DNA from: Octopus vulgaris
Taxonomy: Eukaryota
Reading direction: 5' to 3'
Assembly (NCBI GenBank): GCA_951406725.2
Contig: OX597823.1
Span: 107,880,001-107,944,000, forward strand
Length of the DNA stretch: 64,000 bases
A program made the position numbers and the translations under genes. This document shows positions 19,698 through 35,237 of this stretch, piece after piece; position 1 is the first letter of the stretch; the number at the start of each line of letters is the position of its first letter. The notes under the pieces are model-generated. The model saw only the letters and a program-made list of their open reading frames with translations, searched no databases and had not been told where the DNA came from.

Positions 19698-19735
19698 GGC
19701 TCAGGAGTGGATGTGTGGTAAGTAGCTTGCTTACC
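19698..19735 (+). mobile_element. tRNA-derived SINE head, 5' part (interrupted; resumes at 28116)
   Basis: GGCTCAGGAGTGGATGTGTGGTAAGTAGCTTGCTTACC matches the first 38 nt of the intact SINEs at 35075 (+) and 61157 (-). Confidence 0.9.
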
Positions 19736-19955
19736 TTTGTCGTAGACAGACGTGTTTTTTTGGCGGTGAGTCAAACGTTTTGTTCAACGTGGATAATTTT
19801 TTTCTATTGGAATTGTTGTCTATTGTTGAATATTTTCGAATTGTTAAACTTTGAAAACTTTTGAGCTTTTTCCCGGTGACGGGAGAAAGTAATTGTTGAA
19901 ATATTGAAATTATTAATATTGAACTTATTAATATTATTAATATTGAACTTATTAA

Positions 19956-20399
19956 AGCCGTTGTAGGCTTTATTGTCGTGCCGCCCCCCCCCCCCAGCGG
20001 GGTTGGCATTTGAACTGTTATCCTCATTAAGAGGGAAAAACTATTATAGGTTTCCCGTTTTGGGGGATAAACAATTTATTATTGCGAGAAAAATTAAATT
20101 TTAGCCGTTGTAGGCTCTATTGTGGCATCCGCCACTAGTGTGGGCGAGATTTGAACTGTTGTCCTCGTTGTGAGGAAAGAAAAAAAATATCATAGGTTTC
20201 CCGTTTTTGGGATTCTATATTTTATTATTGTGTGAAAAAAAAATATTTCGAACGTTGTAGGCTTTGTTTGCTACGTCTCGCCCCCCCCCCCCAGCAGGGG
20301 TGGGATTTGAACTGTTGTCCTCGTTAAGAGAAAAAAAATTAAAAAAATTATAGGTTTCCCTTTTTCTGAGATTAAATTGTGTATCATTTATTTCGAACG
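19956..20399 (+). repeat. Three approximately 147-bp tandem monomers in the element 1 5' UTR
   Basis: CGTTGTAGGCT recurs at 19959, 20106 and 20253. Each unit has TTTGAACTGTT.TCCTC and ATAGGTTTCCC. Confidence 0.9.
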
Positions 20400-20402
20400 A
20401 AA

Positions 20403-22247
20403 ATGTCGGTCGAAATAATCCAAGAAAAGAACCAGCTGCAAGAGCCAGCAAAAGAGTTCGCGGCAGTAGCCGCTGTGTCTTCAAAAAATATTACAATTGA
20501 AACGGAGAAGCTCTCCGAGCTTTTTGAGAGAACGAAAGAGGAGGATGGGGATATAAAGATCTCACCCGGATCTTTTCGGTTTGAACGGCAGTTTTTAAAA
20601 ATAATTTCCACGTAACTAAACACTTTTAAACTTCCTATACTGGTAGAATGTGTTTATAAAACATCTTTTTCTCTTGGCTTTAATGAGAAAATTCTATAGT
20701 TTGTAAGATATTTGTTGTTTTTTCTTCAATTTCTGCAATTTCAACCAATCAGTGACGTCAATTGAGGTGAAAACATTCTGTGCAGTATGAATAAGTCCCT
20801 CGTTTAAGAAACAGATTGGGTTTATTTACATTTCTGAAGAAGAAAATATATACCCTCCCCCCCACCCATAGCCCTAACCCTAACCCTAACCTTAACTAAC
20901 TCTAACCCTAAAACAGATTGAAATGCAATAGATCGATAATAGGGTCATAATTATGGGTGATAATTTCATATGACACCGCTAGAAAAACTGCCGTTCAAAC
21001 CGAAAAGATCCTCTCACCCTCCCCTAGTGTAGAAAATCTGAAGAGAAGGACACTCGTTTAAAAAACGTACTGTCCTTCATCGAATAAATTCAAGCACTTC
21101 GAAAAGTGCGAAATAGAAAAATGCCTGGCTCCTATATGGAAAGATATAAAATACATAGCGAGGGGCCGGGCATATGGAACAATAGAGGCCAGATTCAAGA
21201 CGGCCGAAAAAGCCCAAGAGCACTCAGTGATTCCTCTAAAACGAAGGAGGTGGTGCTGCTCCCAACATACATGAGAAGGAGAACAGCACGCGTCCGAATA
21301 AACGACGTACCACCAGAAATTAAAGCAAGGGAGGTGATGGCCGTCCTGTTGTATAACAGGACGGACAAAATCACCTTTTCCAAATTACATGCACTGCCCC
21401 ACAAAATTGGCAAAGGCAGAGCATCTGTGCGATTATTCAAGGAACGCAACAAGACATCGAAATGTTGCCAGAAAAAGTGCTCTTGGGGGAAGATATTGCC
21501 CTCAAGATTCAAGTAGAGGGCAAAAGGCCCAAGTGTTTCGAATATGGCAAAAAAGGCCACATTCGCGTAGAATGTGAAATATGGAAAAAAAAGAAAAGTG
21601 TGCAGACATCAGGCCCTTCAACTACAGAAAAAGACCCCAAACCCGCACACAAATTAGCCTCCACAGAAACAAATACTCCCACCCCACCATCTGTGGAACC
21701 CGCTCCCAAACAAAACACCAAAAAACTCCAGGCCATGCACACACCGGTCCCGACAGAAACAAATGCACCCACCCCCTCTGAAGTAACAACTCCTCTGGAA
21801 GACACCATGGAGGTGACCGAGGGGGAGTTCAAGACACCCAGAAAAAAAGAGAACACATGCACCGTCCCCATCCATATCCCCCACAAAGAAAAAAGAAGAA
21901 AAACAGCACCCAACAGAGAAGAAAAGGTCCCGCTCCACTGTCCCAGAAGAGAAAATAAAAAAGAACAAAGACGAAACAAAAACCTTGGTAAAGTTTGATA
22001 CCAGGGATAAATATATTACGGACATTTTAAAAACGCGCCACAAAGTGGAGCTGTGGAAGAGAGATGTGCCTGGATACCAGAAAAATTGTATAATGAAATG
22101 AAGGGTAGGCATCCGAGGACCATCACGAACATCCCGGACCTTCCGCGGTATTTCAAAGAGTTTTTGAAGGAGCAGGAGGAAAGGACTGCCTCACTTGTGG
22201 TGAGGTCAGCCCCAACATCACCAATAAAAGAAAAAGTCAAAGAGTAA
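20403..22247 (+). pseudogene. Element 1 ORF1 (gag-like, CCHC knuckle), disrupted by a MITE, stops and frameshifts
   Basis: The frame continues across the MITE (..DIKISP|SPSVENLKRRTLV*..KYIARGRAYGTIE..LLPTYMRRRTARVRI). Knuckle KCFEYGKKGHIRVEC (second C mutated), then a P/T/K-rich tail. Confidence 0.8.
20568..21011. mobile_element. MITE, 444 bp, 29-bp TIRs, 8-bp TSD TCTCACCC
   Basis: GGATCTTTTCGGTTTGAACGGCAGTTTTT ... AAAAACTGCCGTTCAAACCGAAAAGATCC. TSD at 20560-20567 and 21012-21019. Internal (CCCTAA)n tract at about 20872-20910. Confidence 0.95.
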
Positions 22248-22276
22248 GTAGAACCCTTGCCTTTCTTTTGTTTTAA

Positions 22277-25200
22277 ATGACTGCACTTAACCTTGGGTGT
22301 TTGAATGTGCGTGGTCTGAGCTCGAAGTGGAAGCAAGCTTGTTTCCTCGACGACCTCAGATCACACGATATGCATGTGATGGTTGCTACAGAGACCAAGC
22401 TGGACAGTCTACAAGCCTTCTCTCCCCTCCTCAATGACTATGAGAAAATCATGTCTCCTAGCCGGACCGGAGGGCGAGGGAGTGTAGTAGTACTGGCTCG
22501 AAAAGGTTTGGCTCTGCAGACAAGTACAGTCTATGTAGACCCAGAAGGTGGGCTGGTCGTCCTTGATGTGACATACAGCAGTAAGGCCTTCAGGTTGATC
22601 GGGATCTATGCACATTGTGCTAGAGGATTCCAAACTGATTTCTATCGGCGCCTAGAGAACTTTCTCGTGAGGTTGAAGACATTAGTGGTGTTAGGTGACT
22701 ATAACGCTATTGTTGATGCGCGCATCGATAGCGTTGGCTGGATCTATAGGAAAGTAAACTCACGTCTCGTGGATCTGCTCAAGCAGTTTCAGCTGGCAGA
22801 TCGTTACAGACTTGACCATCCGAACGCCCCAGAGTGGACCTGGATGAGTGGCGACGGAAGGTTCAAGTCCTATTTAGATAGGATAGTGATAAGAACTGGA
22901 GATAAGTCTAGTTTTAGCTGTCCACAGCTTGTCCAAGTAGCATACACTGACCATAGAATGGTTAAGTGTAGACTGGACATAGATAATACAGTTAAGAGAG
23001 GATCCGTCTACTGGGAGCTGAACAAGTCTATTTTGACTTGCGAAGCATACCGTAGCCGGATTGAGGAATTAGTACAGAGGTCGTTAACCGGCGCGGTGGT
23101 TAATAACCGATGGTGGTTCGCCCTGAAGAGAGCCATTCGTTTTGAGTCTATTAGGTTTAGCCATCAGCTAAGACTTGATAAGTCCAGAATAGAAGGGTAA
23201 CTAGTTAAGGACCTAGGGGAGGCGTTGAGGTTGGGCTCTGCATCTCACATTTTGGCAGCGAGAACGGCCTTGGACCATCACCTCAAAGTCAAGCATGAGG
23301 GGTGAAGAGTTCGGGCTAAAGTGCACGCATTGGGCCGTGAGGGAATTAGTGTAGCCGGATGGGCTCGTACGGTAGAAACCCAGCGTGGCAATGATGCCAC
23401 AAGTAAGTCTCTCGTGGATGACAATGGGAGTTCGGTCGATGGGCGGGACGAGATGTGTGAGGCGATTCACAAGCACTTTGCCGAGTTGTTTGGAAGTGGC
23501 GGAGCGCTGGATCATGGCGAGGCCCTTAGGGACTTCCTGTCTGCCGGCCAGCGTCTCTCGGCAATCACGGCCGAGGAGGTAATCGAGGTACTGGGTGAAT
23601 GCCCCGGGGAGAAGTCACCGGGTCTCGATGGTCTGCCTTATGAATTTAACAAAACTATGCCAGACTTGTTCGGGCACCTGCTGGCCAGCGTCTACGCCAA
23701 TTGGCAGCAGAATGGGAGAATTCTCAAGTTTGCAGCCGGGTGGGGTGACGTTGATCAGGAAGGACCCGAGCAAGGAAGACGAGATAGGGAACTTCAGGCC
23801 CATAACTCTGCTGAACACGAAGTTAAAGATTTTGGCCAAGGTGCTAGCGAAAAGGTTGGCGCGAGTCGTGGAAAAACTTGTCGGGGAAGCGGAAACGTGC
23901 GCTATCCCGGGCAGGATGATTAACGACAATCTCCACCTTATACGCTACTCCTTAGAGAGGGCGGGGAAGATTTCTGGCGCAGGAGGGAGGGGAGGCATTG
24001 GTACATTTAGACCAGTCTAAGGCATTCGATAGGGTCGACCATCGGTACTTGGCGGCGGTCCTCGAGAAGGCTGTCCTGGGCCCGACCTTCTGCGGTAGGA
24101 TTGCTGCGTTGTACAGCGACATTGAGTCCGTCGAAAAAGTGAACGGCTTCCTTTCAAAGCCATTCAGGATCGAACGCTCAGTGCGTCAGGGGTGCCCCTG
24201 TCCCCGCTTTTGTATATACTGGCTCTCGAGCCATTATTGCGGAAGTTGGAGGCACTAGGGGGCGCACCGTATGATCTATGGTATGGAAGAGGAGCTACGG
24301 CGTATGCGGATGACATCTCCATCATCGTGGCGGATGAGGGCCAGCTTCCAGTGGTGGAAGAGGCTATCAAAAGTTACGAGGCGGTGGTAGGAGCAAAGGT
24401 TAACAAGGACAAGTCAATTGGTTTGCAGCTCGGCACCTGGAAGGGCAAGCCGATGCCGTCCAATAACGTCGTGGGGCGTTGGACGGAAGGTCCTGTTATG
24501 CTGCTCGGAGTCTGGTTCGAGCCAGACCTCCAAATAGAGAAAAATTGGAGTGAGGTGGCCAGCAAGGTGACTGCTCTAGCCAGACCTGGTCTGGGCGGGG
24601 GTTATTCTTGCTAGGAAAGGCGGAGGTGTTACAGATGTTTATAGCATCGGTTATCACCTACCGTCTGACCGTGGTGCCTTGCCCCAATTTGTGGCTGAAC
24701 AAGTTGGAGAGAATCCTTTTCCACTTTTTGTGGAAGGGAGGAAAGTCACTCGTGAAGCGCTCTGTCTGCTGCCAGAAACCGCTAAAGGGTGGGCTAGGGA
24801 TGCCTTAGCTGAGGATGCGAAAATTCGCGTTAAGGTTGAGGCACCTCTGGCTTTACCTGGATGGAGAGCAGGTGTGGTCACCGCACGTTCGGTTCTACAT
24901 TCCGCAATTAACTTCCTTAACGGACATTGTTAATTGGATCAAGCAGAGACCTAGGCTGGGGGACTAGCAATTGGAGAGCCGCCAGGCATTTCTGCAACTC
25001 TTTTGGGTGGGCAATGCCGGCAATAGGAGTTCCACCGCGGATTTCTATAGTGGGTTAATGGAGGTTAAGTCCGAAGACGCCTTGGGGGAAACCCTGGGCT
25101 ACGATGAAAATCAGTTAACCTGTTCCGGAGAACTTTCGGGCCAGGGTATCTGGACAATTACCAGAAATCCCTGGCTTGGCAGTGCTTCTGTGCGGCGTTA

Positions 25201-25650
25201 TCTGTTCGTGACAAACTGTGAAGGCACGGAAGTGCTGTCTCGCCGACATGTCCGAGGTGCGGGCAGGACAGGGAAACCGTCTTGCACGCATTTGTGGAAT
25301 GTCCGGAATTAACGGGACTGATAGTTTTCGCAGAGCAACTGCTGTCATCGATGGGAAGAGTATAGCTATCAGCTGAATCTATCATCGAGATTGTGCTGCC
25401 TCCTGCCCTCAACAGGGAAAGGAAGGCTTGCTTTTTCTTCGTAGTAGCCATACTGAAAGAAACAGTATGGAAGACGCGTGTGAGAGGCATAGTGTCGAGT
25501 ACCTTTGTATCCGGCCAGGGGTTGGTTAACTTTTTTAGTTACCACCTCAGTAGTAAGATCAGGCTGGAGAAGAGGTACCTGTCACGAGACAGATTCATGA
25601 GAAGATGGAAGCCTGTGGCGAGGAAGTTGGGAGTGTTTGGCATCAGGTAA
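22277..25650 (+). pseudogene. Element 1 ORF2: AP endonuclease, reverse transcriptase, C-terminal zinc finger (frameshifted)
   Basis: APE motifs LNVRGL, ETK, GDYN, LDRI, TDH in an intact 307-codon frame. RT motifs KSPGLDGL, FRPITLLN, LDQSKAFDRVDH, RQGCP/LSP, YADD. C-terminal CPRCGQDRETVLHAFVEC. Confidence 0.95.
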
Positions 25651-25920
25651 GTGGAAGCCAAAAACATTAAAGAAAAAGCAAGGGGTCTATCCTGGTGGTC
25701 GGATGCCAATCTTTCAAAGAAGCCATTACAAATTTCATTTGTAATGAGCAACGCTTAACTCAAAAGTTATAAACATATTTATTAAATTATTGTATATTTT
25801 AAATTGTAAATATTTAATCGCTACAGCTAGTTCATCTTTTTATATTTGTCTGTTCTTGTTCGTCCCCTCTTTGTAATGCCTTCATGGCAAATATTTATGA
25901 AATAAAGTAGCTTTCTTCCC

Positions 25921-28099
25921 ATGAGTCTTTGAGACTTCCCATGATTCATTGTTGTCTGTGTGCGCATGTGCCATTGTGTTGTACACTGAAGAAGATAGCC
26001 GGCTGTGTCTATCCCGCCAAAAGAAGCTGCTGCAAGGTAAGTCTCTTCTCTTGGACCCGGTGTGGGTCGTTGTCTGTGCTTATATGTTTTACAAACAGGG
26101 AATCCTCACTGAATTCAGGATGTTGGTCTACTTGTGGTTCAGCAATATGCTCCATAGTAAATAAATATTTTTTTCTCATTTTCTGGTAGGCGTATCCTTC
26201 AAAATACTTTGTTTTTACAACAACAACATTTACCATTATTGGAAAAGTGTATTTCAAGTGTTCACATGAAGGGAAAACTTTTTTTCTCATTGTGCGAAAT
26301 ATAGTTTGGTGACTATCTTGCCACCGAAAGTCGTTCGCCGTTTTTAAATAGTGTGTATTTTACGACTACGTTGGAAAGCTGTATTCAAGTGGAGCAGTCC
26401 AGGTTCGAATTGGAGTACCATAAGTGCTTGAAGTACATGAATGCCCAGAAGATTTTTTTGCTGTGTTTTCTTCTTTTGAACTATTGTTTTCTTCTATTGT
26501 GACTTTTTATTGAACTGTTTGTTTTTTTTTATTTCTTCTTCCCTTTTGTTTCCTTTTGAATTCTCTCTTGCCTTTTTTGTGAACTATTGCTTTGAACATG
26601 GCGAAAAAACTACGGATAAGATTGTTGTGTGGGAGATTGTCCCACCGAAGCAGTAGTTAAAAGATATGGAGGAGAGGATGATGGTGGTTAGAACTTATTC
26701 TAAAGTTCTTGATTCCATCACCATCTTCCCAAAACCAATTATAGAAAATGAACTGAAAGACTATTTATCCTCTGTGAAATACATATCCCGCGGTGTCAAA
26801 CATGCAATCGTATGGTTGCTGTTCGACTCCCGGGAAAAGGTTCGCAATTTTGCGAGCCAGCCATAGGAGGGCAACGGAATTCTGTTCTTCCCGTCGTACT
26901 GCGGGAGGAAATTAATAAGAGCCTGGATATGTGTGTTACCCCCAGGAACCGAAGCGGGTTGGATTGAAGATACCATCCGACGGGGACTGGGGAATAGCGG
27001 GCCCAGGCTCTTAAATGTAAGGGTATTGCCGGCGGTCGATTGAGAAGGGCCAAAAGCAATTTTGACCCTGTGGACCCCATCGGCCGTAACATATCTGGTT
27101 TTTCCAGATTTTTTAAAAATGGATGGCTCAAGTTATGCAGTGATACTTGATGGTCGCCTCCCCTTGTGTCACTTGTGCCTGGAGTCAATCCACATTAAGA
27201 AGGAGTGTCCCCGGGGCCGTGGTAAATCCCGGAGCAGGGAAAGGTGAAGGTGCCCTCCGCTCTCCCGTTGCAGGGAGAAACGGAGGAAGTTGTTGAGGCA
27301 TTGGCTTCAACGAGTAGGAAAGAAAGGTGAGCAACAATGGTTGCTCACCAACAGATGCGCAGGTTGCGGGAGAAGAGGAGGACCCCTCTAGGTGTGCCGG
27401 TAGAGGCCTCGACGCCCGCAACCGTGAAAAGGAAAAAAGAAAAGAAAGAGAAACGGGAGACTGTCGGCGGATGTCGTTGTGCCGTCGACCGAACCCGATG
27501 ATCCTCCGGTGGAAGGTGTGCCACTGGAGCGAGACACTCTGTCAGTGAGAATCGTGCCACTGACAGAGCAGGCTGAGGCCCCTCCCCGTGAGAAGGAGGC
27601 GAAAACCATCGTTTTCTATCTCGGGGAAGGGCCTGCCGAGAAGTGCTTGGACGGTCTTCCAGGCCGAGAACGATTGGACTCGGACTGTATAGACTGTCCA
27701 GGCTGGCCTCCGCAGGTGGCTGCGGAGGCCGTGAGTCAGAAAGAGCTGTTTGAGGTCATGGTGACCTGTAATAAGGAAGAATTTGCATTCCTCTTTCTGG
27801 GGCCCGACCTGCCGATGCAGGCTTTCCTGCAGGCGGCGTGTCATTTGCTTGGGGCTCCGATGAGGAGAATTGATTGTGTGTTTACTGAATAATTTTGTAA
27901 TGGAGTATTAAGTCTAATAATTGTAAAAACTGTCGTTAAAAAAAAAAGGAACAATGTTTTAGAGAAGCAGAAAATCGGTGGGGGTTTTCTGCCTTCTCCC
28001 ATCAACATCATCCTTGTTTCATCATTCACCTCATCAATGTATATGTCCAGCCGGCAAGCTACTCTTTGTAATGCCTTTATGGCAAATTTTAATGAAATA
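25921..28099 (+). mobile_element. ORF1-only non-autonomous Tx1-like retroelement (element 2, HAL1-like)
   Basis: Bounded by target copies at 25905-25920 and 28100-28115. Its last 40 nt match element 1 at 37/40. It has an ORF1 homologue and no APE/RT sequence that I can detect. Confidence 0.8.
26598..27892 (+). pseudogene. Element 2 ORF1 (CCHC knuckle), decayed
   Basis: KYISRG..FFPSYCGRKLIRAWI parallels element 1 KYIARG..LLPTYMRRRTARVRI. Knuckle LDGRLPLCHLCLESIHIKKECP. Several stops and frameshifts. Confidence 0.75.
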
Positions 28100-28115
28100 A
28101 AGTAGCTTGCTTACC

Positions 28116-28178
28116 AACCACATGGTTCTGGGTTCAGTCCGACTGAAATATAAAATAAATATAAAATAAATATAAAAA
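28116..28178 (+). mobile_element. Remainder of the interrupted SINE (B-box joined directly to the tail)
   Basis: AACCACATGGTTCTGGGTTCAGTCC continues the head from 19735, then jumps to GACTGAAA plus an A-rich tail. Confidence 0.85.
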
Positions 28179-35074: not shown

Positions 35075-35237
35075 GGCGCAGGAGTGGCTGTGTGGTAAGT
35101 AGCTTGCTAACCAACCTCATGGTTCCGGGTTCAGTCCCACTGCGTGGCATCTTGGGCAAGTGTCTTCTGCTATAGCCCCGGGCCGACCAATGCCTTGTGA
35201 GTGGATTTGGTAGACGGAAACTGAAAGAAGCCTGTCG

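What the first reader, a model, noticed from the sequence alone, without database searches (positions are those of the whole stretch)
19698..28178. Two different Tx1-like retroelements stacked at one site inside a tRNA-derived SINE head: candidate SINE-targeting, site-specific retrotransposon system
Seen: a SINE head stops at 19735 and resumes exactly at 28116, judged against the intact copies at 35075 and 61157. The 16-mer AAGTAGCTTGCTTACC occurs three times (19720-19735; 25905-25920 with 2 mismatches; 28100-28115). It brackets element 1 (6.2 kb) and element 2 (2.2 kb), which have the same orientation and the same TSD length and both end AATAA directly at the target. The site lies between the pol III A and B boxes. 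Known: Tx1-clade APE elements are often sequence-specific (Tx1L/Tx2L into Tx1D/Tx2D, Keno into U2, Mutsu into 5S, Dewa into tRNA arrays), and because the TSD restores the target they can stack in tandem. Inference: two independent hits at the same nucleotide suggest an endonuclease that recognises this abundant SINE or its parental tRNA as a safe-harbour target. I do not know of a described case in this lineage but cannot exclude one.
Basis: partly seen in the sequence, partly recalled or inferred. Interest (0 to 1): 0.9.

Follow-up and report, generated by a model that had tools for sequence, protein, structure and literature searches.

The report
Retrotransposons that target a SINE promoter
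A group of L1/Tx1-type jumping genes in this (likely octopus) genome sits almost always at one exact position inside the promoter of an abundant short repeat (a SINE), likely because their endonuclease cuts that sequence, and young intact copies exist that would let this targeting be tested directly.

Summary
Confirmed and extended genome-wide. The window holds a SINE head, a decayed autonomous LINE (E1), an ORF1-only passenger (E2) and the rest of the SINE. Of 90 other copies picked by their 3' tail, 81 are followed by the SINE target, 2 more lie in deleted SINEs and 7 are off-target. The 30 best copies picked by ORF2 protein are all on target. A young 5.4-kb family with intact ORF1 and ORF2 (58 exact 5' ends) is 99.4% identical between copies while its host SINEs are 93.4% identical, so it entered pre-existing SINEs. 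E1 and E2 are not a fixed composite.

Corrections: E2 is a non-autonomous partner, and the middle '16-mer' is partly E2's own target-like 5' end. The target is the SINE; no tRNA gene carrying it was found. All 38 young 5' junctions end in element-derived TAACC, matching the SINE subfamily they mostly occupy. A sister family (70% RT identity) is followed by (ATT)n instead.

Target-specific Tx1 elements are known, but I found no SINE-targeting case in 10 literature searches of an open-access library. Tx1 membership was not tested against named references.

The parts
19698..19735 (+). 5' part of the tRNA-derived SINE (nt 1-38), with the A-box-like 19708-19718 and the first copy of the duplicated target (19720-19735)
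   Evidence: Match to intact SINEs at 35075 and 61157; A-box consensus recalled
19736..25904 (+). E1: decayed autonomous L1/Tx1-type LINE; 79.5% DNA identity to the young intact family over 21089-25904, 92-93% to its nearest copies
20391..22229 (+). E1 ORF1 remnant (zinc-knuckle protein in intact relatives), with stops and frameshifts
   Evidence: tblastn with the young ORF1; zf-CCHC in intact ORF1
20568..21011 (.). Later MITE insertion in E1 ORF1: about 29-bp terminal inverted repeats, 8-bp duplication TCTCACCC
22277..25650 (+). E1 ORF2 remnant: APE endonuclease (open 22277-23200), RT, zf-RVT; three frame changes and 11 stops in the tblastn alignment
25877..25889 (+). E1 3' tail hairpin TGCC-TTCAT-GGCA, predicted signal for ORF2p
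   Evidence: covariation across 27 tails
25905..25920 (+). Middle junction: target-derived AAGTAGCTT merged by microhomology with E2's own target-like start
25915..28099 (+). E2: about 2.2-kb ORF1-only non-autonomous element sharing only the last 38 nt with E1; exact 5' end blurred by microhomology
26594..27892 (+). E2 ORF1-like remnant (52% to the L064 ORF, which has a weak zf-CCHC hit; 23-26% to E1-type ORF1)
28072..28084 (+). E2 3' tail hairpin TGCC-TTTAT-GGCA
28100..28115 (+). 3' copy of the 16-bp target-site duplication
28116..28145 (+). Resumed SINE (nt 39 to about 68) with the B-box-like 28131-28140, then truncated
   Evidence: B-box consensus recalled

Best explanation
This is a radiation of L1/Tx1-type non-LTR retrotransposons, autonomous ORF1+ORF2 families plus ORF1-only passengers, that sit at one position (before nt 23) in the head of an abundant tRNA-derived SINE, likely because their APE endonuclease nicks that sequence to prime reverse transcription. 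Inferred steps: ORF2p binds a conserved 3' RNA hairpin and nicks the bottom strand at 5'-CTACTT/ACC-3'. A second nick about 16 bp away gives the duplication. The 5' end joins through target-like bases carried at the RNA's own 5' end. The duplication restores the site, so later elements stack in tandem, as E1 and E2 did here. Insertion separates the SINE's A and B boxes (shown by position), which would silence that SINE copy (inferred).
For: Shown. Tail-selected: 81 of 90 have the target at the 3' junction (90 of the 122 other hits were examined). ORF2-selected: 30 of the top 30 of 151 matches. 603 exact T-variant 3' junctions genome-wide. A broken SINE head lies upstream in 40 of 90, at distances of 39 to 6471 nt, so truncations are independent; control 0 in 535 kb of reversed sequence. 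Young family: 38 of 38 5' junctions read are target-bounded, 33 behind a SINE head and 5 behind another tail. In 20 young copies the element is 99.4% identical and the host SINE 93.4%; the SINE is more diverged in 190 of 190 pairs. Both ORFs are intact in L270, L276 and L280. Four of 7 off-target copies show 16-bp duplications, and all 7 begin with AAGT/AGTAG-like sequence. All 38 young 5' junctions end TAACC, even in the 10 of 36 whose target has T there. The hairpin covaries: 94% of cells paired, 7 compensatory cells, 0 of 500 shuffles (related sequences, so not a probability). SINE-targeting RTs form one clade (SH-aLRT 100, quick tree).
Against: 50 of 90 tail-selected loci show no SINE head in the 1.5-6.5 kb fetched. 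Many end at microsatellites or other repeats, two keep a shortened head, and several are stacks, but not all were explained. 7 of 90 are off-target. No biochemical nicking data exist. Activity today is inferred from intact ORFs and 99.4% identity; no insertion polymorphism was shown. No autonomous element with the E2-type ORF1 was found, so its partner is inferred from the shared tail. Targeting in other species was not shown.
Confidence: 0.9

Rival explanations
1. Hitch-hiking: the element and the downstream SINE body move as one transcript (read-through or a composite master), so the shared 3' flank is not a target.
For: There is no poly(A) tail, so read-through is possible; 50 of 90 tail-selected loci lack an upstream head in the fetched range.
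Against: Host SINE bodies are far more diverged than the young elements in 190 of 190 pairs. Heads abut elements truncated at many different points. Off-target copies lack the SINE body yet have 16-bp duplications. L091 carries the same private 2-bp insertion in both duplication copies. E2 occurs behind different partners.
Confidence: 0.03
2. Specificity comes mainly from RNA-DNA pairing or from tethering to Pol III factors bound on the SINE, with only a loose endonuclease preference (TT/A, as in L1).
For: The RNA 5' end carries target-like bases. The young family favours the A-variant SINE that matches its own 5' end: 26 of 36 versus 45% genome-wide, p=0.001. The site lies between the A and B boxes.
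Against: 5'-truncated copies, which lack that 5' end, have the same 3' junction. Insertions also occur at stacked junctions where the A or B box is kilobases away. Off-target sites outside SINEs resemble the target sequence. The A-variant bias may reflect age: older families are 2 A to 75 T.
Confidence: 0.15
3. The true or ancestral target is a host tRNA gene, and SINE copies are hit as look-alikes.
For: The SINE head is tRNA-like; tRNA-associated targets are reported for Dewa and Dada (PMC3706591, passages).
Against: 27 distinct tRNA gene sequences from 30 loci differ from the 16-mer by at least 7 bases (only Arg, Ala, Thr, Cys, Lys and Glu types were sampled). The 16-mer with a canonical B box occurs twice, both in SINE-like sequence. 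The sister family is followed by (ATT)n.
Confidence: 0.05

Closest known systems
Tx1-Mar LINEs and SINEU of crocodilians (Kojima 2015, PMC4494074; abstract and passages read)
   Same: Tx1-type elements prefer one site inside an abundant dispersed repeat. Passengers share the target, tandem copies sandwich a duplication, and the reported SINEU-3 duplication is also 16 bp.
   Different: That target is an old Mariner DNA transposon; here it is the Pol III promoter of a SINE. The passengers here are ORF1-only elements, and intact young autonomous copies exist.
Tx1L of Xenopus, Keno, Kibi/Koshi, Mutsu, Dewa (targets as listed in passages of PMC4494074 and PMC3706591)
   Same: Sequence-specific insertion attributed to the endonuclease. 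The (ATT)n-flanked sister family here parallels the microsatellite-targeting Kibi and Koshi.
   Different: Their targets are a piggyBac element, U2, microsatellites, 5S and a tRNA spacer; no SINE is listed in the passages seen.
HAL1 (half-L1), ORF1-only non-autonomous L1 derivatives (PMC5753468, passage)
   Same: E2-type elements are about 2.0-2.3 kb, encode only an ORF1 and share the partner's 3' end.
   Different: They are target-specific, and their ORF1 is only 23-35% identical to the partner's, so a simple deletion origin is not shown.
R2 families whose RNA carries target-derived sequence (PMC5035012 and PMC4494074, passages; 5' annealing mechanism recalled)
   Same: Target-like bases at the element's end appear to guide junction formation.
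   Different: R2 uses a restriction-like endonuclease and rDNA. No ribozyme family reached its threshold at the young 5' end.

Membership tests
L1-group non-LTR retrotransposon | ORF2 with N-terminal APE endonuclease, RT and C-terminal zinc domain | tested here: met
   PF03372, PF00078 and PF13966 in the 1140-aa ORF2 of L280; best PDB match human L1 ORF2p E 1e-66 versus R2 E 2e-19
L1-group non-LTR retrotransposon | Separate ORF1, variable 5' truncation, target-site duplication | tested here: met
   487-488-aa ORF1; truncations from 39 to 6471 nt; 16-bp duplications
Tx1 clade | RT groups with named Tx1 families (Tx1L, Keno, Kibi, Koshi, Mutsu, Dewa) | not testable with these tools
   No named Tx1 sequence came back; the tree has no such reference
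Tx1 clade | ORF1 with CCHC zinc knuckle (feature recalled) | tested here: met
   PF00098 E 4e-5 in L280 ORF1
Tx1 clade | Target-sequence preference (over 20% of flanks, the criterion in PMC4494074) | tested here: met
   81 of 90; 30 of 30
HAL1-like ORF1-only elements (E2) | ORF1 only, no ORF2, shared 3' tail | tested here: met
   No E2-tail locus has this family's ORF2 within its unit; L031 and L081 have ORF2 hits 3.5-5.5 kb upstream, read as separate elements; 38-nt shared tail
HAL1-like ORF1-only elements (E2) | Derived by deletion from the autonomous partner | tested here: inconclusive
   ORF1 only 23-35% identical to the partner's; no DNA similarity beyond the tail
tRNA-gene-targeting elements (Dewa or Dada type) | Insertion in or beside functional tRNA genes | tested here: not met
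   On-target flanks continue into the SINE body or into a stacked element; sampled tRNAs lack the site; the tRNA sample is incomplete
CORE-SINE (octopus OR1/OR2) for the target repeat | Central CORE domain homologous to MIR | not tested
   Only the CCTTGGG motif named in PMC5786205 (passage) is seen in copies; no alignment to OR1/OR2 was available

The most novel reading that the evidence does not exclude
An undescribed, probably still active LINE lineage specialised on a SINE promoter: a parasite of a parasite that disables each SINE copy it enters. It carries ORF1-only passengers, re-captures target bases at its 5' end as new SINE subfamilies arise, and switched target relative to an (ATT)n-associated sister at 70% RT identity, giving a natural pair for mapping APE endonuclease specificity.
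Probability: 0.55. Interest if true: 0.78.

Novelty: new variant of a known kind. Interest (0 to 1): 0.66.

Why it matters
It adds a class of target, a SINE promoter, to those reported for site-specific LINEs, and shows that a dispersed, evolving repeat can sustain near-exact targeting. Intact young copies and an intact sister family with a different flank make APE target choice directly testable by domain or loop swaps. The 5' junction data suggest how L1-type elements finish integration, a poorly understood step. An element aimed at more than 66,000 dispensable sites is also a candidate for safe-site gene insertion in cephalopods.

Tried and rejected
ARAGORN and Rfam found no tRNA or other RNA gene in the window.

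An APE query against longer proteins returned nothing (weak evidence by the tool's own note). No relative carried a Tx1 name; the closest named protein is from Argonauta hians, 73% to P0127 in RT.

DNA context for relatives in other species could not be obtained.

Sequencing runs under six coded organism labels hold parts of E1, with no RNA holder on record. Laying four runs showed the family and the SINE in organisms A, B and E but was swamped by repeats. It is not evidence on targeting, empty sites or expression.

No known ribozyme at the young 5' end. The tree is the quick version; the careful search did not finish. The earlier-findings look-up returned nothing. PMC85248 (Tx1L endonuclease) was not held, and the supplements of PMC4494074 could not be read; they list Tx1 targets and could bear on novelty.

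Rejected: fixed E1+E2 composite, chance, tRNA-gene target, hitch-hiking.
Full report
OBSERVATION. The three 16-mers, the split SINE and the two co-oriented inserts are at the stated coordinates. The SINE resumes at 28116 but runs only to about 28145. E1 (19736-25904) is a decayed LINE. Its ORF1 remnant is broken by a 444-bp MITE, and its ORF2 (22277-25650) has APE, RT and zinc regions with three frame changes and 11 stops in the alignment. E2 shares only the last 38 nt with E1 and carries a distant ORF1 but no ORF2. The genome is 2.8 Gb. An octopod origin is inferred from the closest named protein, Argonauta hians, and from my recollection of octopus SINEs.

3' FLANKS. The shared 26-nt tail pattern has 124 exact hits, control 0. 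I examined 90 of the 122 outside the window; 8 listed and 24 unlisted hits were not fetched. 81 of 90 have the target 15-mer (at most 3 edits) at the junction, 2 lie in SINEs with deletions, and 7 are off-target. An independent selection by E1's ORF2 protein gave 151 matches; all of the top 30 end at the target (four overlap earlier sets). The exact T-variant junction occurs 603 times. Intact target 30-mers number 30,053 (A variant) and 36,073 (T variant), so a random hit has a chance of about 1e-5.

5' FLANKS AND INDEPENDENCE. A broken SINE head lies upstream in 40 of 90 loci, 39 to 6471 nt from the 3' end; the control found 0 in 535 kb. About three of these heads may belong to other insertions. 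The other 50 show no head in the range fetched: some are stacks, two keep a shortened head, many abut microsatellites or other repeats, and some are unexplained. Stacks recur with different partners (L017, L032, L034, L052, L055, L058, L064, L088, L095, L104). Of 29 other E2-type 5' ends, 19 follow a head, 5 a tail (1 of E1 type) and 5 neither, so E1+E2 is not a fixed unit. Which of the two arrived first here cannot be told.

A YOUNG INTACT FAMILY. The ORF2 search exposed a 5.43-5.44-kb family with ORF2 frames of 1140-1150 aa; three of the 18 copies fetched also have a full ORF1. Its 5' 24-mer occurs 58 times. In 20 copies the last 800 nt are 99.4% identical while the following 130 nt of SINE are 93.4% identical, and the SINE is more diverged in all 190 pairs. 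This is the strongest evidence for insertion into pre-existing SINEs. All 38 5' junctions read are bounded by the target, 33 behind a head and 5 behind another tail; a triple array was also seen.

MECHANISM. The duplication is 16 bp even off-target: 4 of 7 off-target copies show one (0 to 3 mismatches), three of them at the element's mapped 5' boundary and one at a 5' start, and all 7 sites start with AAGT/AGTAG-like bases. This points to sequence recognition with a fixed stagger (inferred). All 38 young 5' junctions end TAACC, including the 10 of 36 whose downstream target has T at that place, often with a one-base slip. Seven of 29 E2-type copies begin with a whole degenerate target copy. 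The RNA therefore likely carries target-like bases that anneal at the second nick, which also explains the window's middle junction. Young copies occupy the A-variant SINE in 26 of 36 cases (45% genome-wide, p=0.001); older tail-selected copies do so in 2 of 77. The element's 5' end thus appears to track SINE subfamilies, by age, preference or both. A four-pair hairpin before the tail covaries across 27 tails (relatedness inflates this test) and is the predicted ORF2p signal that lets ORF1-only passengers ride. The site lies between the A and B boxes, so insertion would silence the SINE copy (inferred from recalled Pol III promoter rules).

RELATIVES. A second young family in this genome (1145-aa ORF2, at least 150 matches, arrays spaced 5.87 kb) is followed by (ATT)n in 30 of 30 loci. 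Three tandem junctions there have 15-18 nt of (ATT)n between copies; its free 5' flanks were not checked. Its RT is 70% identical to the SINE-targeting one. In a quick tree the SINE-targeters form a clade (SH-aLRT 100) inside a clade (99) with this sister and the Argonauta protein. The two differ in the loop before the SYLDR motif, which I recall as a specificity determinant in L1-type endonucleases. Sampled tRNA genes lack the site.

KNOWN AND NEW. It works like the target-specific Tx1 elements, closest to Tx1-Mar/SINEU. Membership of the L1 group is met; membership of the Tx1 clade is untested because no named references were available. Ten literature searches found no SINE-targeting LINE. 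I read passages of PMC4494074, PMC3706591, PMC5035012, PMC5753468, PMC3747384, PMC4824008, PMC4758252, PMC5786205 and PMC8967140, and part 1 of 3 plus a word search of PMC13282606. That paper lists 13 recently active L1-Tx1 families in Octopus vulgaris and does not contain the word 'target'. The library lacks most subscription journals, I did not see Kojima and Fujiwara 2004 or Repbase Reports, and the supplements of PMC4494074 were unreadable, so prior description cannot be excluded.

VERDICT. A real, strongly supported SINE-targeting LINE system; a new variant of a known kind. Interest 0.66.

Noticed in passing
L208-L237, L288, L289; G000:C4:93804531-93834478, C50, C47: Young sister LINE family with an intact 1145-aa ORF2, followed by (ATT)n in 30 of 30 loci and forming tandem arrays of up to 10 copies at 5.87-kb spacing.
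   Followed up: partly
L360-L389 (10 loci read); 6,937 exact junctions genome-wide: A second abundant SINE of about 230 nt has a 3' end nearly identical to this lineage's tail. It forms 184-bp head-to-tail arrays in which the next unit starts about 45 nt into its own head. It may be a passenger that targets its own head.
   Followed up: partly
L008/L095 3' junction; L373: A third, different tRNA-like SINE head directly follows a 16-bp target-like stretch at the end of an element; possibly another passenger using these sites.
   Followed up: no
window 20568-21011: MITE with about 29-bp terminal inverted repeats, an 8-bp duplication and internal (CCCTAA)n; 87-89% similar copies occur in at least five other fetched loci.
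   Followed up: partly
window 19950-20370: About three imperfect 140-150-bp repeats in the 5' UTR of E1, shared with other E1-type copies.
   Followed up: no
P0003 / P0124: A close relative of this ORF2 is filed under a Herbaspirillum sp. MAG on a 1.8-kb contig, probably animal DNA in a bacterial bin.
   Followed up: no
L048, L077, L102 5' junctions: Short extra pieces of SINE-head sequence at 5' junctions, suggesting template jumps.
   Followed up: no
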